34,776 bases of DNA. Origin: a virus. Lineage: Duplodnaviria > Heunggongvirae > Uroviricota > Caudoviricetes. This document shows, piece by piece, positions 1 through 34,776 of the stretch (position 1 is its first letter; each line of letters opens with the position of its first letter). Location of the stretch: the IMG/VR virus record IMGVR_UViG_3300028991_000022. The stretch is one strand, 5' to 3'. The notes beneath the pieces were generated by a model. That model worked only from the letters and a program-made list of their open reading frames with translations. It was not told the origin of the DNA and made no database searches. Both the position numbers and the translations under genes were made by a program.

Positions 1-126
1 CGCCTGCAGATGGTCTATTTCGCGCTCCCGGTTGCTCAGCTTTTCCTGCAGGGCGTGGATCAGCGCTTCCTGTTCGGCCAGGCGCTGTTTCAGCAGGAAG
101 ATGTCGTCAGAAGAAATGTCGTTCAT
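1..126 (-). CDS. tnpC: IS66-family transposase TnpC (Orf3), N-terminal 42 codons only
   Basis: Minus-strand translation from the ATG at 124-126 reads MNDISSDDIFLLKQRLAEQEALIHALQEKLSNREREIDHLQA, the coiled-coil N-terminus typical of IS66 Orf3; truncated by the window edge. Confidence 0.7.
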   Translation of the reverse strand, partial: MNDISSDDIFLLKQRLAEQEALIHALQEKLSNREREIDHLQA

Positions 127-175
127 AAGCCCGTATTTTACCGGGCTTATTCTGTGACAACCAGGATAAAGAGAT

Positions 176-523
176 TTACAGCATGGTCAGGGAGGTCAGC
201 AGCCGCTTAGGCTGTCGCCAGTCGATACCTTCCAGCAGCATCGCCAGCTGCGCCTGCGTAAGGAACACTTTGCCATCACGGGCTGACGGCCAGGCGAAGC
301 GCCCACGCTCCAGCCGTTTGGTCAGGAGGCACAGCCCGTCACCGGTGGACCACAGCAGTTTAACCTGACTGCCGCTGCGGCCCCGGAAAATGAAAACATG
401 GCCGGACATGGGATCGTCTTTCAGCGCCGTCTGTACTTTCGCAGCCAGGCCGTTGAAGCCATTTCTCATATCGGTGATACCGGCAACCAGCCAAATTTTG
501 GTCCCGGAAGGTAACGGGATCAT
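176..523 (-). CDS. tnpB: IS66-family accessory protein TnpB (Orf2)
   Basis: 115-aa ORF (IWLVAGITDMRNGFNGLAAKVQ...LLWSTGDGLCLLTKRLERGRF) matching the conserved IS66 Orf2 pattern; start overlaps the upstream tnpA stop. Confidence 0.8.
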   Translation of the reverse strand: MIPLPSGTKIWLVAGITDMRNGFNGLAAKVQTALKDDPMSGHVFIFRGRSGSQVKLLWSTGDGLCLLTKRLERGRFAWPSARDGKVFLTQAQLAMLLEGIDWRQPKRLLTSLTML

Positions 524-921
524 CGCTTCAGTTCCTGTATCAGCAGAGTCAGGAGCTTTTCGCTGACATTGCCATTGAAGCGGAGCGTCCCGTGCCGGAA
601 CGTTACCTCACAGCTGATACTGAGGGTTTCCGGGTCCTCTGCGAGCGATTCTGGCTGTTCGGCAGCTGCATCGAGAGTCACAGGAAGTAGCTGGGGGCTC
701 TCTGAAGAAGGTAATAGCAGCTTTCCCTCGCGCCATTGTTGTCGCCATTTGAACAACAGATTGGCGTTAATGCCATTTTCAAGAGCAAGTTTTGAGATGG
801 ATATCCCGGGTTCACAGGAGGCAGCAACGAGCTGCTGTTTAAATTCGGGAGGATAATTAGGGCAGCCTTTTCGCCTGCCGGGAGTCACATTTTTCTGCCT
901 ATCTGACACTTTGGTTCCCAC
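520..921 (-). CDS. tnpA: IS66-family accessory protein TnpA (Orf1), HTH-containing
   Basis: 133-aa ORF with the HTH-like segment ISISKLALENGINANLLFKWRQQWREGKL typical of IS66 Orf1. Confidence 0.75.
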   Translation of the reverse strand: MGTKVSDRQKNVTPGRRKGCPNYPPEFKQQLVAASCEPGISISKLALENGINANLLFKWRQQWREGKLLLPSSESPQLLPVTLDAAAEQPESLAEDPETLSISCEVTFRHGTLRFNGNVSEKLLTLLIQELKR

Positions 922-1071
922 TACTTATTTGGTGGACACCACTTTGTCTAATTCGTCAGATTCTGACCAGACGGTTCAGGCTGTACGCTTACCAAATATG
1001 CACAAAAATAATCAAAATTATTTTCTGAGATGCATTATGATATGAACACCAATTTCGTATAGAGTCTCACT

Positions 1072-1662
1072 ATGTCTCGAATTTTTGCTTACTGTCGGAT
1101 ATCAACGCTGGATCAGACCACCGAAAATCAACGCCGGGAAATCGAAAGTGCAGGTTTTAAAATCAAACCTCAGCAAATAATCGAAGAACACATTAGCGGC
1201 TCAGCAGCAACCAGTGAGCGTCCTGGTTTTAACCGGTTGCTTGCTCGCCTGAAATGTGGTGATCAATTGATTGTGACAAAACTGGATCGCCTTGGTTGTA
1301 ATGCAATGGATATCAGGAAAACAGTGGAACAACTGACCGAAACAGGTATCAGAGTGCATTGCTTAGCATTGGGGGGCATTGACCTGACCAGTCCAACAGG
1401 AAAAATGATGATGCACGTAATTTCAGCAGTCGCTGAATTTGAACGAGACCTTTTACTTGAACGCACTCATTCCGGGATAGTAAGAGCCCGCGGCGCAGGG
1501 AAACGTTTTGGTCGACCACCTGTGTTAAATGAAGAACAGAAACAGGTGGTATTCGAACGAATTAAGTCAGGTGTAAGTATAAGTGCCATTGCCCGGGAAT
1601 TCAAAACCTCGCGGCAAACCATTTTAAGAGCCAAAGCAAAACTTCAGACACCTGACATATAA
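1072..1662 (+). CDS. pin: Serine-recombinase DNA invertase (Pin/Gin/Hin/Cin family)
   Basis: 196-aa ORF beginning [16 protein letters not shown] with the catalytic Ser in the resolvase/invertase N-terminal motif and a C-terminal HTH ([18 protein letters not shown]). Sits next to stf/tfa as in Rac/Qin/e14-type prophages. Confidence 0.9.
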
Positions 1663-1759
1663 AAAATAATCTCGGTGTGAGATGCTTTACGTCTTCCAAG
1701 CCCCCTTCCTTGCCGTAAATGGAAAGATACATCTAATTATAGAATTTATATGTTTTACC

Positions 1760-2335
1760 CTACGGCAGTGCTGGCCATTCAATATCCTGTGCAGTTGACG
1801 TATCAACACGGTTCAGCAACACCCGATACTTTTTCCAGGCTTCCAGCAATGAGGTTTCTTCCTCCGTTGCGATTTCCAGATCTACAGCATCCTGAAGTGG
1901 CGCAATATGCTCACTGGCTACCTGCATCAGGCTGTTTTTTGTTTCTTCCGCCTCTCGGATCCGGAACAGTTTTTCTGCTTCTGCATCTTTCACCCAGGCT
2001 GTGCCGTTCCACTTCTGAAACTCCCCTTCCGGCGATAACCAGGTAACATTTTCCGGTAACGGACCGAGTTCAGAAATAAATAACGCGTCCCCTGACGCTA
2101 CGTCATAAACCGTTTTACCCCGATGGTCTTCATCGAGATGCCACGATGCCTTATCACTGTTGAAAACAGCCACAAAGCCAGCAGGAATATCTGGTGGTGC
2201 AATATCGGTACTGTTTGCTGGCAGACCTGTATGAGGCGGAATATATGCGTCACCTTCACCAATAAATTCATTAGTTCCGGCCAGCAGATTATAAATTTTT
2301 ATGGTCCGTGGTTGTTCACTCATTCTGAATGCCAT
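1760..2335 (-). CDS. tfa: Tail fiber assembly protein (Tfa)
   Basis: 191-aa ORF immediately downstream of stf; length and position match lambda-type Tfa chaperones; C-terminal EWPALP-type tail. Confidence 0.85.
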
Positions 2336-5300
2336 TATGCAAGCCTCACAATATAGTTAAATGCGATGTTTTTGACGGTGTTTTCCGCGTTACCAGCAGC
2401 GTTAACGGTGATGGTGTGTCCATGTGAACCAATCGCAACGGAGTGCGTATGAGCACCAATACCGACAGTATGCGCGTGTGCACCTGCAGATGCTGCTGTG
2501 CCGGACAGTGAATGGCTATGATTACCATCTGTACTGGTATTCGCTAACCACCCCGTAGACATACCTACTGAGCCTTGTACACCCCAGGTATTTTGACCTG
2601 AGCTTGTATAACCATATTGATAAGTATCTTTAAAAACACTGGGGTTAAATCGACGGCCATCTCTATGGCTGTGATTACCAGCTGCATTCGTGCTGCCACT
2701 TAAACTATGGGTATGCGCACCAGTGTTATTCGTGGATTTAGTGCCGTAATCAAACGACGATGTGGTTTTCGTCCCCAAATCCGTACTGGATGCGCTGGCG
2801 CTGTGGGTATGCGATTTAATGCCATCCTGTTCCTGAGACAATACGGCACGACCACTGGCGGGCTTGCCCTTAATCGTCCAGCCACGCAAATCAGGGATCA
2901 CGCCTGACGGATAAGCGGCAGCAAGTTTCGGGTAGGCAGATTTGTCAAAAGTCTGCCCCTGCATCAGGGCATAACCAGACGGAACGGTATCTGATGGCCA
3001 CGGGATTGGTGCGCCGACTGGGTAGCTTTCTGGTGGAAGATTTTTCGAGGTATAAACTTCTGCCCAGTCTTCCTCAAAACCATAGCCATCTCTTGAAGAA
3101 CGGTAGAACAGACCACCATTTCTGTAATGCGCCTTCATCTGCAGGGTCCGGCAACTTCCGACTCCGGTATAGAAGTTAACCAGAATATAGCTGTCGCCAG
3201 AGCGGGTGACATTGTAAGCGCCTGATTCGGCATTCCAGGGAACGCCACCATCCGCATCGGCATATGTATCCGTTGCCCTTCTGGCAAAAGCAGCCACATG
3301 CGCGGCGGTTAAAGTAATATCTTTGGAACCATCAAACTCAACACCAGAAACCAGTCTTGGCGTTTGCAGCTTTGTTGCTGTTAATGCATTACCGTTCAGA
3401 CTTGCGGACAGTTTGGTTCCAATAACCAGTTCGCCGGTTGCGTTATCAATAGCAAACGGTCTTAATGTATTCCAGCCACCATAAACATCACCTTGATTGG
3501 TAAGCAGCAGGTAAGTTTTAGCGCCATCATTACGCCATAATGCCCCATACTCCCCACCTATCATTCGAATCTGATTACCACCACGCGCTACAATTTCGTC
3601 TGTGGCAAAAAGTTTTTTGCACGACAAGTTATCGTTAACGATTAACGAATGAGACTCATAAAAACCACGCCCACTCTTAAAATCAAGGATAACGTCCGCC
3701 GCGATACATTCAGTCGCCGGATTTGTTGCCCCAAACTTATAGGTCGTATCATTAACAACGAGATCAGCACCAGGTGCGGATATTGACAGGCCATCTTCGA
3801 TAAACGCAAAAACAGGGAAAGCAGCGCCATCAACATAGAACACAGAGCGCAAATCATCGCCCTTATTACTCATCATTATTGAGTGGATGGCTCGTTCATT
3901 GTTTTGATATTGCCAGAACATTCCATAAGCATAACGCCCCCTGTCAGTCCAGCCACCAGGCATAACAAATCCGTTAAACTCGCAGTTATTCATCGGATCG
4001 CCTGCGGTTCGCGTTGCCGTGGTGATAATGACCCTTGATGCCAGTTCGCTTACTGAGCCAGCAGAACGCATAACAACAACAGGGTAATATTTTCCAGATA
4101 TTGCACCTGCAGGAGCGTTAACCCGCACATAACGCATACCACGCTTATCAGCAAAGTCTGTTTTACTGACCGCGTTAATGTTGTTCAGGAAGCGTCCCTT
4201 ATCGGGTATATCAGCGCCGTTCTGGTCTTTCTGCAGACGTTTCTCTGCATTGTCATAGGCTGATTTTACTGCCTTTGGCGTTGCCGCCAGCGTTTCAGAC
4301 GAACTGTTGGTCGCACTGCTGAGCTGTACTATCCCCTTTTTCGTCGTACTTGCATCCTCAAGCGCCACGGCGGATGCAATATCCTCTGCCCGTTTAGCTG
4401 CTGTCTCGGCGCGCGTTGCTGCGGATTCTGCCGTATTCTTGCTCTGTGCTGCCGCCGTCGCACTGCCAGCAGCCTCTGTTGCCTTCGTGGATGCCGTCGT
4501 GGCGCTGCCTTTCGCTGCTGATGCCTGTCTGGTCGCCTCATCTTTTGAAGCAGACGCCGATGAGGCCGATGACGCCGCCGAACTGGCGGACGATGCGGCA
4601 GCCGTTTTTGAGGATTCTGCGCTGGTTTCCGACGCTTTCGCGTTCGTTTCGGATGTCTTCGCTGCGGAAGCTGACCTCGCTGCTGCGTTGGCCTGTTCAG
4701 TGGCTTCGCCAGCCTTCGTTGTGGCTGTTGAAGCAGACGATGCGGCACTTTCTGCCGATTTTCCGGCGGCGGTGGCACTGGCTGAGGCCTGCCCGGCACT
4801 TGTTGACGCGGTACTGGCAGACGACGCAGCCGCTGTTTTTGAGCCTGCCGCAGCTGAGGCGCTCTGTCCCGCTGCCGTCTCAGAAGACCTGGCGTTCGCC
4901 TCGGACGTTTTTGCCGCCTTCGCGGAATTTCCTGCCGCCGTTGCCGAGGAAGCGGCACTACTGGCGCTCGAGGATGCGTTCGTTTCTGATGATTTCGCTG
5001 CCTCTTTTGAGGCCGCCGCATCCCGGGCTGAGGTGGCAGCTTCTGACGCTTTCGTGGTCGCGGTGGATGCAGAAGTGGCTGCTGATTGTTGTGACGCTGC
5101 GGCATTCGTTTCTGACGTTTTCGCCGCACCGGCACTGGTAGCCGCCGCGCTTTTTGAGGACTCTGCTGCGGCAGCACTTTTTGATGCTTCAGTAGCCTTT
5201 GTTGATGCCGTTCCTGCGCTGGAAGACGCTGACTGAGCCGACGTCGCGGCCTGCCCGGCTGATGTGCTGGCTGCACGTGCTGAGCCTGCAGCATCAGTCG

Positions 5301-5733
5301 CATGGGTTGCCGCCTCACGGGCTGATGTGCCGGCATCGCTGGCTGACTTCTTCGCGGCTGCCGTGTTCTGTGCCACCGCGGACGCGTTACGCGCCACCTC
5401 TTCCACCATCAGCTCAAAACGGCGCAGTGCCTCCGGACGGGCATCATCCTCCGTCATGGCACCGAGAAAATCATTCAGCGTACCGGGTCGGGAATCTTCA
5501 TACACGGTGATGGTCCCGGCATGTGACGGCGGGAATCCTTCCACCAACAGAATAACGCTGTACTGACCGTACTCAACGTCCATGCTGTAACGCCCGGCTT
5601 CATCCGGATTTTCTGAGGCCAGCGTGTTCACCACCACCGTGGTGCTGTTACGTTTTGCTTTCAGCTGGATTGTGCAGTTCTGTACCGGTTTTCCTGTGCC
5701 GTCTTTCAGTACACCTGAAATCTTTACTGCCAT
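2335..5733 (-). CDS. stf: Side tail fiber protein (Stf-like)
   Basis: About 1130-aa ORF; likely ATG at 5731-5733 preceded by GGGGTG. N-terminus [17 protein letters not shown] is lambda Stf-like; long Ala/Ser/Thr-rich repeat region; His-rich C-terminal motifs ([38 protein letters not shown]) as in T4 gp37-type fiber tips. Confidence 0.9.
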
Positions 5734-5797: not shown

Positions 5798-6397
5798 TCA
5801 GAACTTATAACCGACACCCACGATGAAACCGTCAGCGCGCCAGTCGCCACTGCCGGAGCCTTCATAAGCAATATCAATGGCCACGGATTCGGTCGGGTTA
5901 AACTGCACGCCAGCTCCCCACGCCAGAGACGTGTTGCTGTGGCGACCGTCATCACTTCCGGTCAGCACGTCGTGCGTTTTCCCCTTGTTGTCAGTTACGC
6001 GGAGATAATCCCCGGAGAAAGTCGACACACGGCTGTAAGCCATACCCGCCATCGCATACGCGCTGAACCATTCATTCACGCGCACAGACGGCCCCGCCAT
6101 CACGCTGAACCAGCGGTTACGCACGGAATCTTCATGCCAGCGGGTATCGCTGTAACGGGTAAGCTGGCGATTCTTGTCTCCTGCATAGCTGAATGACGTC
6201 ACCAGCCCCAGTGTGTCCGTAAACTCATAACGGTATTTCACGTTAATCCCGTTAAGATCATCGCTGCCGAGAACGTTCGTCGAGGCATGAAGATAGCCCG
6301 CGCTCAGCGTGGACTGATGTTCAGATGCCCATGCAGGCGCACCGGATACGGACAGACAGATGGCTGCGGACAAAATGGCTGCACAAACTTTACGCAT
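5798..6397 (-). CDS. lom: Lom/Ail family outer-membrane protein
   Basis: 199-aa ORF with an N-terminal signal peptide ([24 protein letters not shown]) and a C-terminal ...GVGYKF beta-barrel terminus; sits between J and stf as in lambda. Confidence 0.85.
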
Positions 6398-26055: not shown

Positions 26056-26227
26056 CATTTCCTCTTTTAGTCTGTTATGACTGTCCTGGTACACAGTAGT
26101 GTCAATTATATGGAGCAAACGTATAAAAGATAAGATGAAACATCGCAATAATCAACATACGACGGTCTAAATTTCACACAAACAGATAAAGATGATTATC
26201 ATTTATTATCAATGCATTAGAATCAAA

Positions 26228-26419
26228 TCAATTCAAGAGTCTCATTGCTGCTTCCAGAATTTCTTCTGAAGTTACATGTCGATCCGCTGCTACATAAATG
26301 ACTTTATGATCTCCGGTCAGAGATGGAAACCCTGCAGCCATTACAGTGAGGTGTGTTGTTTCGCCATTTGGATATTCACGCATGATGGTGTTAACTCCGG
26401 TCATCACTGGCACTACCAT
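26228..26419 (-). CDS. Hypothetical small protein (63 aa); occupies the position of ynfN in Qin-type prophages
   Basis: ORF MVVPVMTGVNTIMREYPNGETTHLTVMAAGFPSLTGDHKV...; identity not recognised, positional inference only. Confidence 0.4.
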   Translation of the reverse strand: MVVPVMTGVNTIMREYPNGETTHLTVMAAGFPSLTGDHKVIYVAADRHVTSEEILEAAMRLLN

Positions 26420-26728
26420 TGCTGGTTCAGAGTTAAAAAAACTATTATTTTTTTCATAATGTTACCGTAATATGTGAGTATCCATCGACTAGACACTAAG
26501 CAAAAAAGCTCCCGAAGGAGCCTTCATTTTCACTTTCTTAAATCTAACGACAGATGGCTAACATTTAAGTATTGTGAAATATTATCAAATGTAATCATCA
26601 TTGATTTACAAAAGATACATTTTGCCCCGAAAGGATTTCTGTCAGAAACATCAAAAGATGATGTTCTATACTGAGAACCATGGCAACACGGGCATCTAAA
26701 GTGAATATGGTTTGTAATATTTTCTACC

Positions 26729-26941
26729 TCAAAGTGCCACTACATGAACAGCTGCAGGGCCTTTAGGTCCGTTCTCAATACCAAATTCGACTTCCTGATT
26801 CTCAGTTAACGTTTTGAAATCGTTGCTCTGAATAGCTGAGAAATGCACAAACACATCTTTGCTACCATCTTTCGGCGTGATGAAACCAAAACCTTTTTCA
26901 GGGTTAAACCATTTCACTAAACCAGTCATTTTGTTAGACAT
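26729..26941 (-). CDS. cspI: Cold shock protein, CspA family (CspI/CspB-like)
   Basis: [70 protein letters not shown]; RNP1-like KGFGFI and RNP2-like VFVHF motifs; long AT-rich leader upstream (26945-27300), typical of csp genes. Confidence 0.9.
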
Positions 26942-27305: not shown

Positions 27306-28329
<1,024 letters not shown>

Positions 28330-28333
<4 letters not shown>

Positions 28334-28641
28334 AGATATTTATGATGAGGACGCTCGTGCTTATTGGCAGGATTTTCAATCTTAAAGGAGTACTGATGCT
28401 GCAGATAAGACTCAACTTTTTCTGACAATTTTTCTGCTACTTCCAGGAAGACTTGCCGGACGCTCATTCTGGCTGCTGCCTCATAAAACTCCAGCGCAGC
28501 TCCTTCAACACGGTCCATGGCGACATCCAGGCCAAAAATTTCACCGTCAAAGCGTTCTTTGTCCTGTAAGGCTACAGTTACCGTAACTTTATTCTCAAAA
28601 TTACGGACTCCTTTCACAACCAGTTCATAGTCTTGAGTCAT
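28330..28641 (-). CDS. ydfR: DUF1327 family protein (YdfR-like), between holin and endolysin
   Basis: 103-aa ORF; same size and position as ydfR of the K-12 Qin prophage (between essQ and the lysozyme gene). Identified from memory of family and context. Confidence 0.6.
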
Positions 28642-28645
28642 TGGA

Positions 28646-28861
28646 TTACTCTCCTCTCGCAGCCTTACGCCTGTCTTCTTTAATCTTGAAATAAAGATTT
28701 GTCAGGTACGTCAGCAGGCCAAATACCAGGCTACCCAGCACACCTATTGCTGCCCACTGTGAGGGCGTGACTTTATCGAGCAGCTGTAAAAACCAGTAGC
28801 CAGCACTGCCTGCGGAGGTGCCGTAGGCAATGCCTGTTGAAATTTTGTCCATGGATTTCAT
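28646..28861 (-). CDS. S: Pinholin, phage 21 S-type, with dual start (antiholin S71 / holin S68)
   Basis: From ATG 28859-28861: [71 protein letters not shown]. The MKSM dual-start motif and two transmembrane segments match phage 21 S21; strong SD GGAGGTG upstream. Confidence 0.9.
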
Positions 28862-29112: not shown

Positions 29113-29508
29113 CTAACCTCGCATGTCAAAGCCAGATTTCTGAAAATCTCTGTAGACTTCCGGATTGTTGAAGGCCGGAAATTTGGCTTTATGAGCTGCG
29201 GACTTTATCGCTTCGCAATAGGCTTTATCACCGTTACTGGTAGATATTTTTAACGCCGTGCCATCCTGAGAGAATTCCATATGCAACCTGCATTTTTTCC
29301 CTTTCCAGTTATGCGGCTCATCAAGTTTGGCATTAATTGCAGCTCTGATTCCCCGCGCTTGCGCCCCCCATTCATCCTGATCATCCCAGCGTCCTGAACT
29401 GCAACTACCTGTAGCAGTAGTTTTGTGGCAATCTGAAGGGTGTAAAGGTGTGCATCCCGCAACAAAACCGACCCAAAAAGTCAACATAACGATTTTCTTT
29501 AATCCCAC
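29113..29508 (-). CDS. Lipoprotein with diverged TolA C-terminal domain (TolAIII)-like fold, copy A
   Basis: 131-aa ORF with signal peptide plus lipobox (MGLKKIVMLTFWVGFVAGC, +2 residue Thr). C-terminal KGKKCRLHMEFSQDGTALKISTSNGDKAYCEAIKSAAHKAKFPAFNNPEVYRDFQ parallels the second copy and TolA domain III (two conserved Cys, PxxxxEVY). Confidence 0.65.
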   Translation of the reverse strand: MGLKKIVMLTFWVGFVAGCTPLHPSDCHKTTATGSCSSGRWDDQDEWGAQARGIRAAINAKLDEPHNWKGKKCRLHMEFSQDGTALKISTSNGDKAYCEAIKSAAHKAKFPAFNNPEVYRDFQKSGFDMRG

Positions 29509-29658
29509 TTCTTGCTCCTCAATCCATTAAAATCTCAGCAATAGTAGTTGTTACGTCCGCCACTGGCTCAGAGCTGACTATCCGCTAAATTTAGCTCAGT
29601 GCCGTAGTTGTGTCAGAACAAACCTAAGCCGAAACCGTTTATTACAAAACAATAAATA

Positions 29659-30087
29659 TCAGGGTTTAAAATCCAGCACCCCATTTTGAAATACTTTATA
29701 TACTTCCGGCGAAGGGGGGGCAGGTATATCAGCATTCTTTATCGCATTCATCGCTTCACGACATAAATCGAGGTCTCCACTTTCTCTTTTAACCTCCAGT
29801 AGAAGGCCATTCGGGGCCATATGCATTCTCAGTGTACACTCTTTTCCTGAATACTTACTCGCATCCCCGAACTGTTTTTCGATGGCGCTCTTGATTTGAT
29901 GGGCATACAGACGGATATCCTCACTAACATCAGAAGTACGTTCAGATGAACTCACATACTGTGTCTCTATTGCTTTATCGGAGTAATATGATGTACGGTC
30001 ATGATAATTTGTCGATACAGCATCAGTGCACCCGATAATAATCCCACTAATAATCAACGTAAGAATTGATGCGCTACGAAAACCCAT
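29659..30087 (-). CDS. Lipoprotein with TolA C-terminal domain (TolAIII)-like domain, copy B
   Basis: 142-aa ORF with lipobox (MGFRSASILTLIISGIIIGC, +2 Thr). C-terminus YAHQIKSAIEKQFGDASKYSGKECTLRMHMAPNGLLLEVKRESGDLDLCREAMNAIKNADIPAPPSPEVYKVFQNGVLDFKP closely parallels the E. coli TolA C-terminus as I recall it (YAGQIKSAIESKFYDASSYAGKTCTLRIKLAPDGMLLDIKPEGGDPALCQAALAAAKLAKIPKPPSQAVYEVFKNAPLDFKP). Confidence 0.8.
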   Translation of the reverse strand: MGFRSASILTLIISGIIIGCTDAVSTNYHDRTSYYSDKAIETQYVSSSERTSDVSEDIRLYAHQIKSAIEKQFGDASKYSGKECTLRMHMAPNGLLLEVKRESGDLDLCREAMNAIKNADIPAPPSPEVYKVFQNGVLDFKP

Positions 30088-30620
30088 TTTTCCTCACATA
30101 TGTCATATAGTAAAGAATTATATATACCGTTGTTTTGGACGCTCAAACAGCGAATCAGATCAAATAAAACGCACATTTGTTAACATTTACACAAAGTCTG
30201 CGTGGGATATTCTGAAAGAATATCCATAATGTGGAGAGAATCTATTGAAGTGCATGGTGCCGGGTGCCTCCCGGTGAATTCAGTACCAGCACCTGAATCC
30301 GCGATTATCCCATATACCTACTCGCTGATTGCCCCTCCGCACAGGGGGATTCACCATGCCAGTTTCTTTTAACAAACTCCCCGCAAACCAGAGAACAGTC
30401 AACCGCCTGAATTGTGAAGTATTTAAAAATTTCTCCCGCTAACTGATACCCGGCTAACAGTCTGGCGTTTTCTTTTTCAGCAACGGGAAAGCAACAACCA
30501 CCACACCCGCCACCAGCACACTGTCAGCCAGCACTGACATTATCCGGCTGCTGCAATGCCATTCACAAAAACAGTAAGCAATCACTTTTTACCGTAACAG
30601 GTGATAATCCAGATATGTAT

Positions 30621-30974
30621 CTACCCCAGATGAGTAATCCGAAGTTCATCCATACCACAGGTCCTGGCTATTCTGTTGTACTCCTGAACAAGAGCAAATA
30701 ATTCTGAATTAGCAACCATGAACTCATCGCAAACCCTCTGTATAGCATCACTATTCAGAATAATAACGTCTCTTCCCGAAAGACGATCAGGAGCACAGAA
30801 CAAAACTGTCAAACGGCTGAAGGCCTTTGCTCGTGCTGCATTGACTATATCAATACGCTGCCTAAGGATGAAACACCCCGACGCCTCATCAATATTCACT
30901 CTACCCACACCATATGAATGATAAATATTTAATGCTGAAAAAACCATTAGACCGTATAACAAACACTCAATCAA
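30621..30974 (-). CDS. Hypothetical protein (117 aa), first gene of the moron locus downstream of the tRNAs
   Basis: ORF MIECLLYGLMVFSALNIYHSYGVGRVNIDEASGCFILRQ...; hydrophobic N-terminus; no recognised motif. Start uncertain. Confidence 0.45.
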   Translation of the reverse strand: MIECLLYGLMVFSALNIYHSYGVGRVNIDEASGCFILRQRIDIVNAARAKAFSRLTVLFCAPDRLSGRDVIILNSDAIQRVCDEFMVANSELFALVQEYNRIARTCGMDELRITHLG

Positions 30975-31084
30975 TACTTAACAGAACTTTTATTTTTGAC
31001 AAACATATTATGTTTTCAACAATATCCTGAGCCAGGTATATTCCAGTATAAGGCTCTGCCGGAAGGAATCTGGAAGAATGAATA

Positions 31085-31161
31085 TGGCGCGCTGTACTGG
31101 ATTCGAACCAGTGACCGATTGCTTAGAAGGCAATTGCTCTGTCCGGCTGAGCTAACAACGC
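31085..31161 (-). tRNA. tRNA-Arg (anticodon UCU)
   Basis: 77-nt minus-strand sequence GCGTTGTTAGCTCAGCCGGACAGAGCAATTGCCTTCTAAGCAATCGGTCACTGGTTCGAATCCAGTACAGCGCGCCA; cloverleaf with anticodon loop CTTCTAA (UCU), T-arm GGTTCGAATCC and encoded CCA. Confidence 0.9.
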
Positions 31162-31229
31162 TGAATACCGATAATGGACCGCCATCGGGGACCCGCCCCC
31201 GCACCAACAACCCTGTTATCGTGTCGTCT

Positions 31230-31270
31230 NNNNNNNNNNNNNNNNNNNNNNNNNNNNNNNNNNNNNNNNN
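31230..31270. other. Assembly gap (41 N)
   Basis: Run of n characters; removes the 3' CCA end of the adjacent tRNA and may hide a further tRNA. Confidence 0.95.
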
Positions 31271-31344
31271 GTGGCCCTTGCTGGATTTGAACCAGCGACC
31301 TGGCGATTATGAGTCGCTCGCTCTCACCACTGAGCTAAAGGGCC
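31271..31344 (-). tRNA. tRNA-Ile2-like (anticodon CAU, lysidine-type) or tRNA-Met; 3' end truncated by the gap
   Basis: Minus strand GGCCCTTTAGCTCAGTGGTGAGAGCGAGCGACTCATAATCGCCAGGTCGCTGGTTCAAATCCAGCAAGGGCCAC; anticodon loop CTCATAA; closely resembles E. coli ileX-type tRNA as recalled. Confidence 0.85.
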
Positions 31345-31487: not shown

Positions 31488-32309
31488 TTACCTAGTTACC
31501 TTTTTTAACTGCCGCTCAGCCCATGCTTCTTCAATATCAAACCGGGTCACCAGCGCATCATAGAATTTCTTAACTGTTTTTTCCCATGACGCGCGTGTTA
31601 TCTGGTTTGTCACCTCGCATATAGCATTAAATGCCTCCGTTGATGGTAGTCTTTCATAGCCACGACCACCACAACGCTGGCAGTCTCTGATAACAGGCAT
31701 ACCACGTTTTACCGACTCTTCACGGTGAATGGCGACACCACGCCCACGGCAATCCTTACAGGCGGTGGAAACCTCACCCTTTCCGCCACACTCCGGACAG
31801 GCAACTTTTACCACCTCCCTGACTTTTTTCCATTCTTCCCAGTAAGACGGATACACACCTTTCGTACACTTTGCCCATACCGGCGGCTTACCATCCGGAT
31901 ACTGGACCTTGTTTGTAAAAACTATGCTTTCAATAAATTTTTCCCCATAGCAACAAGGGCACTGCTTTTTACTCGCTGCGCTGCGGGCATAATCCTCAAA
32001 AGCGTACGAAGCCATAATGCGCATCACTACCGGTTTTATTTCTGCCGGAAGTTTTCTCAACGCCGCCACACGATCGCACCGACTGAGTGCATAATCTGCC
32101 AGTAATTCTGTTGCCCGCGCCCTGTCATTCATACTGATGCCCATTTTCCCCAGGAACGCAGAAAAACCCATCTCAGCCCGATTCTGTGTCATGCCCTGCG
32201 CGGCCATCACATCAGTGATACTCAGCGCATCTTTTGACGTTGAGGCCGATGCATCGGTCAGGCCAGGGGATTTTGGGGAGTAGTATTTCGGTAAATCTTC
32301 CAGTTTCAT
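31488..32309 (-). CDS. Q: Late gene antiterminator Q
   Basis: 273-aa ORF directly upstream of the pR'-like promoter; Cys-rich repeats CPECGGKG, CKDCRGRG and CQRCGGRG (CxxCxGxG zinc-finger type) plus CPCC; preceded by rusA as in lambdoid nin/Q regions. Confidence 0.85.
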   Translation of the reverse strand: MKLEDLPKYYSPKSPGLTDASASTSKDALSITDVMAAQGMTQNRAEMGFSAFLGKMGISMNDRARATELLADYALSRCDRVAALRKLPAEIKPVVMRIMASYAFEDYARSAASKKQCPCCYGEKFIESIVFTNKVQYPDGKPPVWAKCTKGVYPSYWEEWKKVREVVKVACPECGGKGEVSTACKDCRGRGVAIHREESVKRGMPVIRDCQRCGGRGYERLPSTEAFNAICEVTNQITRASWEKTVKKFYDALVTRFDIEEAWAERQLKKVTR

Positions 32310-32323
32310 TTTTTGACCTGCTC

Positions 32324-32680
32324 TTAATGCATTATGGGGTAAATCTTCACCCCCAGACGTCCACCAGATACTGGCTGACCACGAACGATATTGATTTCAT
32401 CAAACTGCTCATCGTCCATTAACACTCCCGCATGCGTCAGCGCATCCAGCGGTGCTTTCAGTATATTGTCCAGGTCGCGACGACGCTTATCCGGTGGCTC
32501 TGCAATCACCTTTATCGCCAGCCTTCCGGACAGGCTTAATTTCAGCCGCTGCTGGCGAACAATAAGCGCCACAGCCCGGCGATAACGCTTTCCCTCCTCC
32601 GAGATAAAATATGTGCTGCCACGGCGTCGCCAGTAAGTGTTCACCGTCGGCGGGTAAGGTAAAACCAAATCTATGAGCAT
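32324..32680 (-). CDS. rusA: Holliday junction resolvase RusA
   Basis: 118-aa ORF; DKRRRDLDNILKAPLDALTHAGVLMDDEQ matches the RusA catalytic core (K-12 RusA [29 protein letters not shown] as recalled). Confidence 0.9.
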   Translation of the reverse strand: MLIDLVLPYPPTVNTYWRRRGSTYFISEEGKRYRRAVALIVRQQRLKLSLSGRLAIKVIAEPPDKRRRDLDNILKAPLDALTHAGVLMDDEQFDEINIVRGQPVSGGRLGVKIYPIMH

Positions 32681-32692
32681 CAGTCACCTCTT

Positions 32693-33619
32693 TTACCCAA
32701 GCACGCCAGTTGCAAAGGCGTGATCAAGAAAACGAAAAATTAAATCAACCTGAGAACCATGCTTTTCTTCGAACGCCAGAGGATCCGCATGAAGCTCGTT
32801 GTGATGCTCCCGACACAGCGGTAGCGTGAAAATATCGTGAGATTTTGTCCCCATTCCGCCCTGACCATGACCAATCAGGTGATGGGGATCGTCGGCTGGC
32901 TTACCACAACACGCACACGGCTGTGTCTTCACCCAGCGTTTGTATTTCTCGTTAACCCAGCGGCGACGTTTAGGTCGTTTCATGAAAGATTCCGGAGACT
33001 CAGGATCAACGGCAATGCTGACCACCGTCTTTTCCTGTGGTGGGTTCTGTTGCTGGTGGGCGTGAGGCAGCGGCGCAAGATTTTTTGTGCGCTGTTTCAG
33101 TATGCTGGTGGCGGTCTGCTCTCCCGGTACGATGTCGCTTTCACGGTACATTGAGCGGATTTTTTCCGCACGCAACCCCAGCGAACGACGTAATACCGCT
33201 TCCGGTAGCGCGTCCGCCACCTGATTGCAGACCGCCCACCAGGATAATTCAGCCAAAGATAATTCCCGCTCCTGCGTACCGCTTATTGCGTGACGGATGA
33301 CGTCAATCACCCATGCTGTCAGATTTTGTTGAGCAAGCAGCTCCAGTGATTCCGATGTCTGGTCACGCAGTTGGTTGTCGCAGTGCCAGCACAACACCAT
33401 TGCGCCGGTACCATAACGGTGAATGACTGTTTCAGTGTGATGGTAATCGCCATTAGGCCACTGGCAGGATGTAACATGACGTAATAGCCAGTCGGACAAT
33501 GCGCCAACGCCGCCAGCAGCACGAATCACCCGTTCGTTACTAAAAAACGGCAGCAATGTTTTGTCTTCCGCCAGCGGCTGGCGAACGGCAGGAACGACTC
33601 CGGATGGCAGATTACGCAT
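32693..33619 (-). CDS. DUF968-like protein with C-terminal HNH-type Cys/His motif (YdfU-like)
   Basis: Internal ATG at 33617-33619 (MRNLPSGVV...) chosen because the longer ORF to 33781 overlaps the upstream gene. C-terminal CACCGKPADDPHHLIGHGQGG...CREHHNELH is HNH-like. True start uncertain. Confidence 0.6.
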   Translation of the reverse strand: MRNLPSGVVPAVRQPLAEDKTLLPFFSNERVIRAAGGVGALSDWLLRHVTSCQWPNGDYHHTETVIHRYGTGAMVLCWHCDNQLRDQTSESLELLAQQNLTAWVIDVIRHAISGTQERELSLAELSWWAVCNQVADALPEAVLRRSLGLRAEKIRSMYRESDIVPGEQTATSILKQRTKNLAPLPHAHQQQNPPQEKTVVSIAVDPESPESFMKRPKRRRWVNEKYKRWVKTQPCACCGKPADDPHHLIGHGQGGMGTKSHDIFTLPLCREHHNELHADPLAFEEKHGSQVDLIFRFLDHAFATGVLG

Positions 33620-33743
33620 GCTTTTTGGTTCCGGTTCCACCAGCACTCGAGGATTATGAAATATCTGTATGGATTCACGGCCCGGCTTAAGGACCACCAG
33701 CCCAAGCTCAGGCACCAGAACAGGTCTAAGTAATACCCGCACG

Positions 33744-34022
33744 TTACCTCCAGATCCGTTGCTGGAAAGTGCGGGACGCACGTGGTGGGCGTTCGGAATA
33801 AGGCAGCCTGACAGAGATTATCCAGTGCCGATAGTCGAGACTGAGAGCTTTCTTAACCTCGAACCCGCGCCTGCGGTAAGAATGAATCAGCCATTCGGCC
33901 TGTTCTGCAGTGCATGGAGGGTGCTGGAACCATTCAGACTTGAATGCGTGAGAATACCGCCCGTGCGTGCAGGCAAGAACGGGCGAATTATCAGAATTGT
34001 AATATTTTGCGTTGCGTGCCAT
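33744..34022 (-). CDS. Hypothetical nin-region protein (92 aa)
   Basis: ORF MARNAKYYNSDNSPVLACTHGRYSHAFKSEWFQHPPCTAEQ... with 3 Cys; family not recognised. Confidence 0.45.
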   Translation of the reverse strand: MARNAKYYNSDNSPVLACTHGRYSHAFKSEWFQHPPCTAEQAEWLIHSYRRRGFEVKKALSLDYRHWIISVRLPYSERPPRASRTFQQRIWR

Positions 34023-34088
34023 CGGTTTTCTCCGGTGGCACGGTGTTACTCAGCGGGAGTTCAGCCCCGCGCAAGATTGTAGATGAGT

Positions 34089-34340
34089 TTATTCTCCTGA
34101 AAAAGCAGAAAAGCCAGCTTTTATTCCGATCTCTTTCAATGCCTGTAATGAAGTGACAAACTCACCTTCGCGCAAGATAAATCCGTCCGTGACCCGAGCA
34201 TCCACAAAATTAATTAACGCAGCCCCATTCTTTCGCAAACACATAATGCGGTAATGACTAACAAGATTTCCATTTTCAACGCACACAGCATAGAGGCCAT
34301 CTTCACAAAAAATTTTACGCAGTTCTTCGATGTTCATCAT
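34089..34340 (-). CDS. Small prophage protein (83 aa), rem-like by size and position
   Basis: ORF MMNIEELRKIFCEDGLYAVCVENGNLVSHY...; sits between a hok remnant and the DUF968 gene, as rem does in K-12 Qin. Sequence identity not verified. Confidence 0.45.
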   Translation of the reverse strand: MMNIEELRKIFCEDGLYAVCVENGNLVSHYRIMCLRKNGAALINFVDARVTDGFILREGEFVTSLQALKEIGIKAGFSAFSGE

Positions 34341-34460
34341 CAGAATCCTTCCGGATAATTAGCTCTCCCCTTTAAGGGACCATCCCTCTTATCCCTGCGC
34401 GCTACTTAAGTATTTTTGATTCTATTCCGGCACCGTCCAGAACTTCAAACGCGTTGAAAA

Positions 34461-34487
34461 TAAAAACAAAAACCCGCCGAAGCGGGT
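34461..34487 (-). terminator. Rho-independent terminator downstream of the hok remnant
   Basis: Minus strand reads ACCCGC-TTCG-GCGGGT followed by TTTTTGTTTTT. Confidence 0.65.
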
Positions 34488-34556
34488 GAAGTGCGGGTGC
34501 GTTGAGGATGCCTGCCACATCAGAGGTGGCGAGGGATTTCTCCCCCGCCGGGTCTC

Positions 34557-34628
34557 TTACTCCTCAGGTTCGTAAGCTGTGAAGACAGCGACCTCCGTCT
34601 GGCCGGTTCGGATTCGTACCTCGCAGTG
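34557..34628 (-). pseudogene. hokD: hok-family toxin remnant (C-terminal 22 codons only)
   Basis: Minus strand encodes ...HCEVRIRTGQTEVAVFTAYEPEE-stop, matching the HokD/Gef C-terminus, but an in-frame TGA lies two codons upstream and no hydrophobic N-terminal segment is present; upstream 68 bp are unrelated. Confidence 0.7.
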
Positions 34629-34688
34629 TCAACGCAAAGCAGAAGTGTCACCTTCGGTGCGAAACAGAGATGTCATGCTTTGGTTCAG

Positions 34689-34776
34689 TGAACCGCCCCG
34701 GAAATCCTGGAGACTAAACTCCCTGAGAAAGAGGTAAACAGGATGACTAAAAATACTCGTTTTTCCCCCGAAGTCC
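34689..34776 (+). mobile_element. IS3-family insertion sequence (IS629-like), left end; runs off the window end
   Basis: Terminal sequence TGAACCGCCCCGGAAATCCTGGAGACTAAACTCCCTGAGAAAGAGGTAAACAGG followed by the orfA start; matches the IS629 left end as recalled. Confidence 0.75.
34743..34776 (+). CDS. IS3-family transposase OrfA, first 11 codons
   Basis: ATG at 34743 with AGAGG Shine-Dalgarno upstream; translation MTKNTRFSPEV matches the IS629 OrfA N-terminus as recalled. Confidence 0.7.
   Translation, partial: MTKNTRFSPEV

What the first reader, a model, noticed from the sequence alone, without database searches (positions are those of the whole stretch)
1..34776. Mosaic module composition: lambda-type tail, protease-capsid fusion head, phage-21-type lysis, Qin-type accessory genes
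Tail genes (Z through J, lom, stf, tfa) look lambda-like in order, lengths and termini; the J and I N-termini match lambda as recalled. The head module instead uses a single protease-capsid fusion ORF rather than lambda C/Nu3/D/E. The lysis cassette is phage-21-like, and cspI, gnsB, ydfR-like, DUF968 and rem-like genes mirror the K-12 Qin prophage. Unlike defective Qin, the structural module here appears complete, so this could be a functional relative of a cryptic K-12 prophage.
Basis: partly seen in the sequence, partly recalled or inferred. Interest (0 to 1): 0.45.

Follow-up and report, generated by a model that had tools for sequence, protein, structure and literature searches.

The report
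Known Qin-type lambdoid prophage late region
The window is the late-gene half (tail, head, DNA packaging, lysis and accessory genes) of a common, already described E. coli lambda-like prophage of the Qin/mEp460 type, cut off at both ends by insertion sequences, so it is ordinary rather than a new mosaic.

Summary
The module calls are mostly right. The tail genes are lambda-type: they follow lambda's order and each matches its lambda-specific Pfam family. J is 89% identical to lambda J, and over 95% across its first 900 residues. The head uses one 675-aa ClpP-protease/major-capsid fusion ORF. The lysis and accessory genes are 89-100% identical to K-12 Qin proteins. All 22 structural ORFs are intact and a cos site is present.

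The combination is not new. Window 993-34626 is 99.8-99.95% identical to a prophage at the Qin locus (ydfJ'...rspB) of E. coli 09-00049. About 18% of complete E. coli genomes hold at least 80% of the structural part. The isolated phage mEp460_ev081 matches all four modules at 94-99%, and Tritos/cdtI cover the terS-cos patch it lacks.

The head is Gifsy-2-type (fusion protein 70% identical), not HK97-type. The lysis cassette is phage-21 class only: an S21-family holin and a SAR-like endolysin 35% identical to R21. By allele it is simply Qin's essQ-ydfR-rrrQ-rzpQ.

Published work already calls ev081 a functional phage that carries Qin genes.

Whether this copy is active cannot be told. ISEc8 (1-992) and IS629 (from 34689) bound the window, hokD carries a 99-bp deletion, and the early region lies outside the window.

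The parts
1..992 (-). Partial ISEc8 (IS66-family) element. tnpB is at 176-523, tnpA at 520-921, and the terminal repeat ends ...CGCTTAC at 992.
   Evidence: 98-99.5% match to annotated ISEc8 copies. NCBIfam IS66 TnpA and TnpB hits. Junction read.
1072..1662 (+). pinQ-type serine invertase.
   Evidence: 98.5% identical to K-12 PinQ. Pfam Resolvase plus HTH_7.
1760..5733 (-). Side tail fibre genes: tfa (1760-2335, 191 aa) and stf (2335-5733, 1132 aa).
   Evidence: tfa is 94% identical to lambda and 96% to K-12 TfaQ. stf has phage_tail_N, Gp34_trimer and Collar domains.
5798..6397 (-). lom (Ail/Lom outer-membrane protein).
   Evidence: PF06316, E 1.6e-119. 44% identical to lambda Lom and 95% to ev081.
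6465..9860 (-). J, the tail tip / host specificity protein (1131 aa).
   Evidence: 89.5% identical to lambda J overall: over 95% across aa 1-900 but 34-44% in the last ~130 aa, the receptor-binding domain.
9921..12251 (-). Tail tip assembly genes I (9921-10568), K (10466-11209), L (11214-11912) and M (11922-12251).
   Evidence: 78, 86, 93 and 55% identical to lambda. Pfam Lambda_tail_I, JAB plus NlpC/P60, Phage_tail_L and Phage_min_tail.
12251..17803 (-). Tail shaft genes: H tape measure (12251-15316), T (15288-15617), G (15626-16012), V (16073-16816), U (16827-17228) and Z (17225-17803).
   Evidence: 25-55% identical to lambda, each in its lambda-specific Pfam family. A -1 shift at ...CCG GAA AAG, just before the G stop codon, puts ribosomes in the T frame (sequence read; inference).
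17815..18406 (-). Head-closure protein (17815-18090, 91 aa) and capsid cement/decoration protein (18083-18406, 107 aa).
   Evidence: Pfam Gifsy-2 family (PF13856), with a weak lambda FII-type Phage_attach hit, and Phage_cement_2. The cement protein is 61% identical to Gifsy-2.
18493..20520 (-). Tripartite ClpP-like prohead protease / linker / major capsid protein fusion (675 aa, GTG start).
   Evidence: CLP_protease at 31-191 plus Phage_capsid_4 at 377-672. NF045540, 984 bits. 70% identical to the Gifsy-2 capsid gene and 99.9% to ev081.
20465..24817 (-). Portal (20465-21973), W-like adaptor (21973-22185), terminase large subunit (22182-24281) and small subunit (24290-24817, DUF1441).
   Evidence: Phage_portal_2 'lambda family', and GpA_ATPase plus GpA_nuclease. 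PHROG 141, terminase small subunit. terS is only 42% identical to ev081, but the region is 97% identical to Tritos.
25002..25013 (-). Presumed cohesive-end (cos) site, GGGCGGGAGCGT.
   Evidence: Identical to the first 12 bases of the phage Tritos genome record, and the alignment to Tritos breaks exactly at 25013|25014. It matches lambda's cohesive end at 9 of 12 bases.
25380..26941 (-). Qin-type accessory genes: a 68-aa ORF (lambda p79-like), gnsB, ynfN, ynfQ and cspI.
   Evidence: gnsB, ynfN, ynfQ and cspI are 92-100% identical to K-12 Qin proteins; the 68-aa ORF has no K-12 Qin match and is 79% identical to lambda p79. The cspA thermoregulator Rfam model matches at 26683-27100.
27306..28861 (-). 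Lysis cassette: holin (28646-28861), ydfR/DUF1327 (28330-28641), SAR-like endolysin (27800-28333) and i-spanin rzpQ (27306-27803) with an embedded rzoQ-like lipoprotein ORF (27356-27652).
   Evidence: 92, 98, 99 and 89% identical to K-12 EssQ, YdfR, RrrQ and RzpQ. PF04971, PF07041 and PF00959; PF10721. 34.8% identical to R21.
29113..31344 (-). Cargo slot between Q and the holin: two TolA-domain-III-like lipoproteins (29113-29487, 29659-30087), STnc100 sRNA (30198-30388), a DUF3927 ORF (30454-30585), tRNA-Arg(tct) at 31085-31161 and tRNA(cat) at 31271-31344.
   Evidence: Absent from K-12 Qin, which has cspB/cspF here. Present in ev081.
31488..34340 (-). Q antiterminator (31488-32309), rusA (32324-32680), ydfU/DUF968 (32693-33742), a 92-aa ORF (33744-34022) and rem (34089-34340).
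   Evidence: Pfam Antiterm, RusA and DUF968. ydfU 91%, the 92-aa ORF 100% and rem 100% identical to K-12 Qin. Q is only 40% identical to K-12 Qin's Q, and rusA is absent from K-12 Qin. A terminator-like hairpin lies at 31407-31388, just downstream of Q.
34550..34688 (-). hokD remnant, with a 99-bp deletion at 34626|34627 that removes the hokD start, followed by 62 bp that reach the relE 3' end.
   Evidence: Alignment to L002 and L004.
34689..34776 (+). Left end of IS629 (IS3 family); orfA starts at 34743.
   Evidence: 100% identical to annotated IS629 left ends in VT2-Sakai, VT1-Sakai and phage 1717.

Best explanation
The window is the late-operon half of an E. coli lambdoid prophage of the Qin / mEp460 lineage. 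It runs from the Q antiterminator region to the pin invertase near the prophage end.

Likely way of working, inferred from homology to lambda, Gifsy-2 and phage 21:
1. Q lets RNA polymerase read through the terminator just downstream of Q (31407-31388).
2. Transcription then passes the tRNA and cargo slot, the lysis cassette (S21-family holin, YdfR, SAR-type endolysin, Rz/Rz1-type spanins), the Qin accessory genes and cos.
3. It continues into a Gifsy-2-type head module: a DUF1441 small terminase, a gpA-family large terminase, a W-like adaptor, a lambda-family portal, one protease-scaffold-capsid polyprotein that cleaves itself during prohead maturation, and a cement protein.
4. Finally it reads a lambda-type tail module (Z to J, with a G-T -1 frameshift), then lom, stf and tfa.

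The tail tip is nearly lambda's except for the last ~130 residues of J, so the receptor is probably not LamB.

This module arrangement is the standard one for a known, plaque-forming phage group (mEp460, mEp460_ev081, Tritos, cdtI, Ayreon). It is not a new recombinant. In this copy, ISEc8 sits just upstream of pinQ, IS629 sits at the relE 3' end, and a 99-bp deletion removes the start of hokD.
For: - Window 993-34626 gives a single alignment to the Qin-locus prophage of strain 09-00049 at 99.83%. Megablast splits it into two blocks (993-31229 at 99.95%, 31271-34626 at 99.97%), which together differ by 14 substitutions and two 1-bp indels; a short patch between the two tRNAs (31230-31270) did not align.
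- That prophage lies between ydfJ' and rspB and has int, xis, exonuclease, dicB, ydfD, repressor, cro-like and replication genes.
- 993 of 5,426 complete E. coli genomes hold at least 80% of window 1-25000, and 171 hold at least 80% of 25000-34776.
- Phage ev081 matches at 93.9-98.9% in blocks that cover all four modules. Tritos matches 6844-25013 at 96.9%, and its genome end falls exactly at the window's cos.
- All 22 structural ORFs are intact, and family assignments agree.
- Head proteins are 61-72.5% identical to Gifsy-2.
- PMC10448788 calls mEp460_ev081 a functional temperate phage that carries dicB, dicF, dicA/C and rem homologues. PMC6969025 describes the study in which temperate coliphages were cultivated from infant-gut E. 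coli strains and viromes and lists an mEp460-type phage among the sequenced genomes.
[quoted passage not shown] 2010).
- PMC6379469 reports Qin-locus prophages of 11-97 kb in 189 strains, with structural genes in the larger ones.
Against: - No single phage record is uniformly identical. ev081 lacks matches at 3057-4251 (middle of stf) and 24186-24970 (terL N-terminus, terS, cos), and its TerS is only 42% identical.
- K-12 Qin is not simply a deleted version of this phage. Its surviving packaging gene nohA is 98% identical to lambda Nu1 and has no match in the window. Its Q is only 40% identical.
- The chromosomal site of this copy cannot be seen, because IS elements bound the window at both ends.
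- The transcription, maturation and frameshift steps are inferred from homologues and were not tested.
Confidence: 0.93

Rival explanations
1. This is a new mosaic phage: a module combination (lambda tail, fusion head, phage-21 lysis, Qin accessories) not represented among known phages.
For: Against the classic references the modules really do differ in origin. Lambda matches only the tail at DNA level (6915-12389 at 89.5%). HK97 gives only weak tail-tip hits. K-12 Qin matches only the two flanks. Two short patches are missing from the best phage hit.
Against: ev081, Tritos, cdtI, mEp460, Ayreon and HannyBb share the same head-plus-tail arrangement at 95-97%, and ev081 also shares the lysis and accessory half at 99%. 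A 99.9%-identical prophage exists in several genomes, and about 18% of complete E. coli genomes carry the structural part.
Confidence: 0.02
2. This copy is an active, inducible 'live Qin' prophage that yields infectious particles.
For: All structural, packaging and lysis ORFs and the cos site are intact. There are only 14 substitutions and two 1-bp indels against a prophage that keeps int, xis, repressor and replication genes. Close relatives were isolated as phages (PMC6969025, PMC10448788). Both IS insertions and the hokD deletion lie in regions that ev081 shows to be dispensable or variable.
Against: The early, immunity and integration region is outside the window. Two IS elements bound the window, so IS-mediated deletion or inversion of the rest cannot be excluded. 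If both are simple insertions, a ~47-kb prophage gains roughly 3.5-4 kb; the IS sizes are my own knowledge. That gives about 50-51 kb, against 42.9-47.0 kb for the isolated relatives, which may exceed capsid capacity. This last point is an inference.
Confidence: 0.25
3. This copy is a grounded (defective) prophage remnant whose intact late region persists only because decay is recent, as in other IS-ridden prophages of STEC-type strains.
For: ISEc8 lies at 1-992 and IS629 from 34689, and hokD has a 99-bp deletion. Qin-locus prophages show a graded series of decay states in public genomes (loci L011, L012 and L016 against L013 and L017; PMC6379469).
Against: No structural, packaging or lysis gene is damaged. 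The insertions seen hit non-essential DNA.
Confidence: 0.65

Closest known systems
Escherichia phage mEp460_ev081 (LR597641.1) and the mEp460 group (mEp460, Ayreon, HannyBb)
   Same: Same gene order across head, tail, lysis, accessory and Q regions. Identity is 93.9-97.3% over the head and tail blocks and 98.9-99.3% over 24971-34626. Most proteins are 93-100% identical, including the fusion capsid protein at 99.9%.
   Different: TerS is 42% identical and the TerL N-terminus and cos region differ. The middle of stf is unmatched, J is 88% and stf 89%. The window also has ISEc8, IS629 and the hokD deletion.
Escherichia phage Tritos (OV696610.1) and phage cdtI (NC_009514)
   Same: Head, packaging and tail from J to cos are 96.9-97.4% identical. 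The 12-base genome end is identical, and the DUF1441 TerS is the same type.
   Different: The side tail fibre genes differ. The Q region and cargo slot differ: Tritos has a K-12-like Q and cspB. The lysis and accessory half is only 85-93% identical.
Cryptic prophage Qin of E. coli K-12 (NC_000913.3, 1632277-1652745)
   Same: Genes pinQ, tfaQ, the stf C-terminus, gnsB, ynfN, ynfQ, cspI, rzpQ, rrrQ, ydfR, essQ, ydfU, rem and hokD are shared in the same order. DNA identity is 91-97% and protein identity mostly 89-100%, with the stf C-terminal fragment at 75%. A near-identical prophage occupies the same chromosomal locus.
   Different: K-12 lacks everything from mid-stf to terS. It has a lambda Nu1-type nohA (98% identical to lambda Nu1) where the window has a DUF1441 TerS. 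It has ynfO/ydfO, and cspB/cspF in place of the tRNA and TolA-like cargo. Its Q allele differs (40% identical) and it has no rusA.
Phage lambda (NC_001416), tail module
   Same: The order Z-U-V-G-T-H-M-L-K-I-J-lom-stf-tfa and near-equal lengths. J to L are 78-93% identical and the DNA is 89.5% identical over 6915-12389. The G-T frameshift layout is shared. TerL and portal belong to the lambda Pfam families.
   Different: The shaft proteins are only 25-55% identical. The J receptor-binding end is 34-44% identical. No lambda C, Nu3, D, E or FI counterpart was detected. The terS type, the Q allele (31% identical) and the lysis genes are different.
Salmonella phage Gifsy-2 (NC_010393), head module with tripartite capsid gene (Effantin et al. 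2010, cited in PMC12315714)
   Same: The order terS-terL-small adaptor-portal-protease/capsid fusion-cement protein-head closure. Identities are fusion 70%, terL 72.5%, portal 64%, cement 61% and adaptor 47%.
   Different: Different host genus. TerS is 40% identical. The lysis genes and the rest of the genome are unrelated or distant.
Phage 21 lysis cassette (S21 pinholin and R21 SAR endolysin)
   Same: The holin is in the S21 Pfam family PF04971 and matches 66 of 71 residues of the S21 sequence as I recall it (from memory, not a database). The endolysin is a Phage_lysozyme-family (PF00959) enzyme with a Gly/Ala-rich N-terminal segment and an E-x8-D-x5-T motif, homologous to R21 structures 3hde/3hdf.
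   Different: The endolysin is only 34.8% identical to R21. The extra gene ydfR sits between holin and endolysin. The spanin is of the DUF2514 type. By allele the cassette is Qin's (89-99% identical).

Membership tests
Qin / mEp460-type lambdoid prophage | Qin marker genes (pinQ, tfaQ, gnsB, ynfN, cspI, rzpQ, rrrQ, ydfR, essQ, ydfU, rem, hokD) present in Qin order. | tested here: met
   89-100% protein identity, collinear DNA blocks at 91-97%.
Qin / mEp460-type lambdoid prophage | Integration between ydfJ and rspB by an intQ-type integrase. | not testable with these tools
   IS elements bound the window at both ends. The 99.9%-identical prophage in 09-00049 is at that site, and the ev081 attP coincides with the K-12 Qin ends. 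No genome with this window's IS junctions was found.
Qin / mEp460-type lambdoid prophage | dicA/dicC immunity region and the dicBF operon. | not testable with these tools
   These lie outside the window. They are present in the near-identical prophage and in ev081 and Tritos.
Lambda-type siphovirus tail module | Gene order Z-U-V-G-T-H-M-L-K-I-J, with each product in its lambda-specific family. | tested here: met
   Minor_tail_Z, Phage_tail_U, Phage_TTP_12, Phage_TAC_2, Phage_tail_T, TMP_2 plus Tape_meas_lam_C, Phage_min_tail, Phage_tail_L, JAB plus NlpC/P60, Lambda_tail_I and the GpJ domains.
Lambda-type siphovirus tail module | Programmed -1 frameshift joining G to T. | tested here: inconclusive
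   The sequence ...CCG GAA AAG TCC TGA allows a -1 shift into the T frame. It is not a perfect X XXY YYZ heptamer and was not tested experimentally.
Gifsy-2-type head (protease-scaffold-capsid fusion) | A single ORF with an N-terminal ClpP-like protease and a C-terminal major capsid domain. | tested here: met
   CLP_protease at 31-191 plus Phage_capsid_4 at 377-672. NF045540, 984 bits against a cut-off of 475. 70% identical to Gifsy-2.
Gifsy-2-type head (protease-scaffold-capsid fusion) | A cement/decoration protein gene directly downstream. | tested here: met
   Phage_cement_2, E 2.7e-20. 61% identical to the Gifsy-2 neighbour gene.
Gifsy-2-type head (protease-scaffold-capsid fusion) | Self-cleavage that releases the mature capsid protein during prohead maturation. 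| not testable with these tools
   Needs protein analysis of particles.
Phage 21-type lysis cassette | S21-family (pinholin) holin. | tested here: met
   PF04971, E 5.5e-36, covering 63 of 64 profile positions.
Phage 21-type lysis cassette | SAR endolysin: a lysozyme-family enzyme with a weakly hydrophobic N-terminal signal-anchor-release segment. | tested here: inconclusive
   PF00959 plus homology to R21 (3hde, E 1.2e-16). The N-terminus [19 protein letters not shown] and the E-x8-D-x5-T motif were seen by eye. No membrane-topology prediction or experiment was done.
Phage 21-type lysis cassette | Close relationship to phage 21 alleles and a contiguous S-R-Rz/Rz1 layout. | tested here: not met
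   The endolysin is 34.8% identical to R21. ydfR (DUF1327) is inserted between holin and endolysin. The cassette is 89-99% identical to Qin's.
HK97-type head | Separate HK97-like protease and capsid genes, with HK97-type portal and terminase. | tested here: not met
   No tblastn hit of any head protein to HK97 at E<=1e-3. The capsid domain is Phage_capsid_4, the portal is 'lambda family', and the terminase is gpA-type.

The most novel reading that the evidence does not exclude
This lies outside the original finding. The two lipoproteins in the Q-to-holin cargo slot (29113-29487 and 29659-30087) carry a copy of TolA domain III. The C-terminal 88 residues of the second are roughly 60% identical to E. 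coli TolA 334-421. They could act as periplasmic decoys that bind incoming group A colicins or the filamentous-phage g3p protein, giving the lysogen colicin tolerance or phage exclusion. I found no paper that describes prophage-encoded TolA-III lipoproteins. For the finding itself, the only remaining novel reading is that this IS-bounded copy is still an active 'live Qin', and that would add little to what is known from ev081 and Tritos.
Probability: 0.2. Interest if true: 0.4.

Novelty: already known. Interest (0 to 1): 0.08.

Why it matters
It matters little. The window is one more copy of a widespread, well-sampled E. coli prophage type, and its functional relatives have been isolated and sequenced. 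Its link to K-12 Qin genes has already been noted in print (PMC10448788).

It is a clean textbook case of lambdoid modularity: a lambda-like tail tip, a Gifsy-2-like head and a Qin-type late accessory block. It also shows that K-12 Qin is not a simple deletion derivative of this lineage, because K-12 keeps a lambda Nu1-type packaging gene.

The one item that might repay further work is the uncharacterised pair of TolA-domain-III lipoproteins. They occupy the slot that I recall Shiga-toxin phages using for stx.

Tried and rejected
1. I looked for the source genome, or any genome with the same IS junctions, to see the rest of the prophage. The best complete genomes (09-00049, GB089, OkiPb01715) lack both IS elements. 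Strain 806883-9-2019 has an IS3-family element at a different position. Ten contexts of the exact PinQ protein showed no IS66 neighbour. The early region of this copy therefore stays unknown.

2. I searched for an invertible tail-fibre segment next to pinQ. Only four short inverted repeats (14-16 nt, imperfect) were found, and there is no second tfa/stf end, so I make no claim of host-range switching.

3. HK97-type head: rejected. There are no hits, and the Pfam families are lambda/Gifsy-2 types.

4. 'K-12 Qin is a deletion derivative of this phage': rejected. nohA is 98% identical to lambda Nu1 and has no match in the window, ev081 or Tritos.

5. I could not locate a phage 21 genome record in the collections. 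The phage 21 comparison therefore rests on Pfam PF04971, the R21 PDB entries and my recalled S21 sequence.

6. Literature searches for prophage TolA-like lipoproteins and for 'TciB' returned nothing relevant.

Full report
**What is in the window.** Almost all genes lie on the minus strand.

The left 992 bases are the end of an IS66-family element, ISEc8. They are 98-99.5% identical to annotated copies, and NCBIfam finds TnpA at 520-921 and TnpB at 176-523. The terminal ...CGCTTAC ends at 992.

The last 88 bases (34689-34776) are 100% identical to the annotated left end of IS629.

Between the two IS ends lies 33.6 kb of lambdoid-phage late region. In minus-strand order, from high to low coordinates, it contains:
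- rem, a 92-aa ORF, ydfU (DUF968), rusA and Q
- two tRNAs, a small DUF3927 ORF and two TolA-like ORFs
- holin, ydfR, endolysin and spanins
- cspI, ynfQ, ynfN, gnsB and a 68-aa ORF
- cos, terS, terL, a W-like adaptor and the portal
- the protease-capsid fusion, a cement protein and a head-closure protein
- Z, U, V, G, T, H, M, L, K, I and J
- lom, stf and tfa
- pinQ, on the plus strand

All 22 structural ORFs, from terS to tfa, are open and full length.

The tail genes are in lambda order with near-lambda lengths. J is identical to lambda J over its first 60 residues, and I matches at 58 of 60.

Identity to lambda falls into three groups:
- tfa 94, L 93, J 89, K 86 and I 78%
- M, V, U, Z and lom at 44-55%
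- T, G and H at 25-38%

At DNA level, 6915-12389 is 89.5% identical to lambda. Each tail protein matches its lambda-specific Pfam family. Within J, identity is above 95% for residues 1-900 and drops to 34-44% in the last ~130 residues, the receptor-binding domain. The receptor is therefore probably not LamB; this is an inference.

The end of G reads ...CCG GAA AAG TCC TGA. A -1 slip there enters the T frame, as in lambda; this is inferred, not tested.

The head ORF at 18493-20520 (675 aa) has a ClpP protease domain at residues 31-191 and a capsid domain at 377-672. It scores 984 bits against the curated NCBIfam model 'ClpP-like prohead protease/major capsid protein fusion protein'.

**What the modules really are.** The head is not HK97-like. 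No head protein hits HK97. The portal and terminase belong to the lambda Pfam families, although they are only 22-24% identical to lambda B and A.

The whole head block is the Gifsy-2 type. Identities to Gifsy-2 are fusion protein 70%, TerL 72.5%, portal 64%, cement protein 61% and adaptor 47%. The Gifsy-2 fused protease/coat gene has been characterised (Effantin et al. 2010, cited in PMC12315714). That paper also notes this head type in lambdoid coliphages with lambda-like tails.

The lysis cassette has an S21-family holin (PF04971, E 5.5e-36). Its lysozyme-family (PF00959) endolysin has a Gly/Ala-rich N-terminus and is 34.8% identical to the phage 21 endolysin structure 3hde. It is therefore 'phage-21-like' as a class.

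By allele, however, it is K-12 Qin's essQ-ydfR-rrrQ-rzpQ, at 92, 98, 99 and 89% identity. That includes the extra ydfR gene between holin and endolysin. The lysis module and the 'Qin accessory genes' are one contiguous Qin-type block (25745-28888, 92.8% identical to K-12 DNA).

**Relatives.** Window 993-34626 aligns in one piece at 99.83% to a prophage of E. coli strain 09-00049. Within the two blocks that megablast aligns, the differences are 14 substitutions and two 1-bp indels; a short patch between the two tRNAs (31230-31270) did not align. In addition, the window has a 99-bp deletion that removes the start of hokD.

That prophage lies between ydfJ' and rspB, exactly where K-12 carries Qin. 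It retains integrase, excisionase, exonuclease, dicB, ydfD, repressor, cro-like and replication genes.

In the complete-genome collection, 993 of 5,426 genomes hold at least 80% of window 1-25000, and 171 hold at least 80% of 25000-34776.

Among isolated phages, mEp460_ev081 matches as follows:
- 993-3056 at 97.3%
- 4252-6624 at 93.9%
- 6844-24185 at 96.5%
- 24971-34626 at 98.9%

That covers all four 'modules'. The two gaps are the middle of stf and the terL-N/terS/cos patch, where TerS is 42% identical. Tritos and cdtI cover the second gap at about 97%.

The Tritos record starts with GGGCGGGAGCGT. The same 12 bases lie at window 25013-25002 on the minus strand, and the alignment to the two ends of Tritos breaks exactly there. 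This is the presumptive cos site, and 9 of its 12 bases match lambda's cohesive end.

The ev081 attP region overlaps by 18 bp with both ends of K-12 Qin. These phages are therefore, in effect, live members of the Qin family.

This link is already in the literature:
- PMC10448788 describes mEp460_ev081 as a functional temperate phage that carries dicB, dicF, dicA/C and rem homologues.
- PMC6969025 describes the cultivation of temperate coliphages from infant-gut E. coli strains and viromes and lists an mEp460-type phage among the sequenced genomes.
- PMC6379469 reports Qin-locus prophages of 11-97 kb across 189 strains.

Contexts of the exact PinQ protein show the same graded series, from full-length versions (L013, L017) to K-12-like deletions (L011, L012, L016).

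**Relation to K-12 Qin.** K-12 Qin shares with the window only three blocks:
- pinQ-tfaQ-stf C-terminus
- gnsB to essQ
- ydfU to hokD

It is not simply this phage with a deletion. Its packaging remnant nohA is 98% identical to lambda Nu1 and has no counterpart in the window, ev081 or Tritos. Its Q is only 40% identical and it lacks rusA. Its Q-to-holin slot holds cspB/cspF rather than the tRNAs and TolA-like genes. 'Relative' is the right word; 'intact ancestor' is not.

**How it most likely works.** All steps below are inferred from homologues unless stated otherwise.
1. Q (Pfam Antiterm) modifies RNA polymerase so that it reads through the terminator-like hairpin at 31407-31388.
2. The late transcript then runs through the cargo slot, the lysis genes and the accessory genes, and past cos into the head and tail genes.
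3. Terminase (the DUF1441 TerS, PHROG 141, with a gpA-type TerL) cuts at cos.
4. The tripartite protein assembles on the portal, and its ClpP-like domain removes itself and the ~185-residue linker. The cement protein then stabilises the expanded shell, as described for Gifsy-2.
5. The tail assembles as in lambda.
6. The pinholin, the SAR-type endolysin and the spanins lyse the cell.

**Is this copy active?** That cannot be decided from the window.

In favour: every late gene and cos is intact. The visible lesions (ISEc8 upstream of pinQ, IS629 at the relE 3' end, the hokD deletion) hit DNA that isolated relatives lack or vary in.

Against: the early region is not in the window, and IS elements at both ends allow for rearrangement. 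If both are simple insertions, the prophage would be about 50-51 kb, against 42.9-47.0 kb for the isolated relatives. That might exceed capsid capacity. This is an inference, and the IS lengths come from my own knowledge.

I put about 0.25 on 'active as it stands'.

**Verdict.** The thing itself is an ordinary, already known prophage type, so novelty is 'already known' and interest is low.

The only item I would flag for follow-up is the pair of TolA-domain-III lipoproteins in the cargo slot. I found no published description of them.

Noticed in passing
window 29113-29487 (-) and 29659-30087 (-): Two predicted lipoproteins (lipobox-like FVAGC and IIGC) whose C-termini resemble TolA domain III. 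The second matches E. coli TolA residues 334-421 over its last 88 aa at E 5e-28, roughly 60% identical; the first matches more weakly (E 5e-9). Both fall in PHROG 5772 (unknown function). They lie between Q and the holin, the slot that I recall Stx phages using for stx. They might be decoys for Tol-dependent colicins or filamentous phage. No paper was found.
   Followed up: partly
window 1-992 and 34689-34776: The window is bounded by an ISEc8 (IS66-family) end on the left and the left end of IS629 on the right. From memory, both elements are typical of STEC-type E. coli. No complete genome in the collection has these two junctions.
   Followed up: partly
window 34626|34627: A 99-bp deletion, relative to strain 09-00049 and K-12, removes the start of the hokD toxin gene. 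IS629 is inserted 62 bp further on, at the 3' end of relE.
   Followed up: yes
L004 (K-12) 7799-8368, compared with window 24290-24817: K-12 Qin's packaging remnant nohA is 98% identical to lambda Nu1 and has no match in the window, ev081 or Tritos, which use a DUF1441 small terminase. The ancestor of K-12 Qin therefore had, or acquired, a lambda-type packaging gene. L012 shows an intermediate decay state, with an ORF that combines terminase-ATPase and J domains.
   Followed up: partly
window 24186-24970: A sharp mosaic boundary lies inside terL. The TerL N-terminus, TerS and cos differ from ev081 (TerS 42% identical) but match Tritos and cdtI at 97%. This fits exchange of the packaging-specificity unit as a block.
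   Followed up: yes
window 6465-6860 (J C-terminus): The last ~130 residues of J are only 34-44% identical to lambda J, while the rest is over 95% identical. This implies a receptor other than LamB.
   Followed up: partly
window 1072-1662 (+): A PinQ-type serine invertase lies next to tfa/stf, but there is no second fibre end and there are no long inverted repeats, so no obvious local invertible segment. PMC12529663 reports that K-12 PinQ inverts cryptic prophage DNA; per the preprint version of that work, the inverted segment is a 1.8-kb stretch of another prophage, e14, and the inversion blocks phage T2 adsorption.
   Followed up: partly
window 30198-30388 (-), 26683-27100 (-), 1794-1992 (-): Rfam hits above the gathering score: STnc100 sRNA upstream of the larger TolA-like gene, the cspA-type thermoregulator leader of cspI, and the 'IS009' candidate RNA inside tfa.
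   Followed up: no
window 31085-31161 and 31271-31344 (-); 31230-31270: tRNA-Arg(tct) and a tRNA with anticodon cat lie downstream of Q. ARAGORN calls the second Met, while RefSeq annotates its homologue as Ile. The 41 bp between them is the only stretch that did not align in the megablast comparison with strain 09-00049.
   Followed up: no
window 30454-30585 (-): A 43-aa DUF3927 ORF matches PHROG 1470, annotated 'TciB-like inhibition of cell division or resistance to colicin'. It sits next to the TolA-like genes.
   Followed up: no
window 26435 and 26987: Two single-base indels relative to strain 09-00049. The first changes the predicted start and length of ynfN (63 aa here, 76 aa there, 51 aa in K-12). 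The second is intergenic, upstream of cspI.
   Followed up: no
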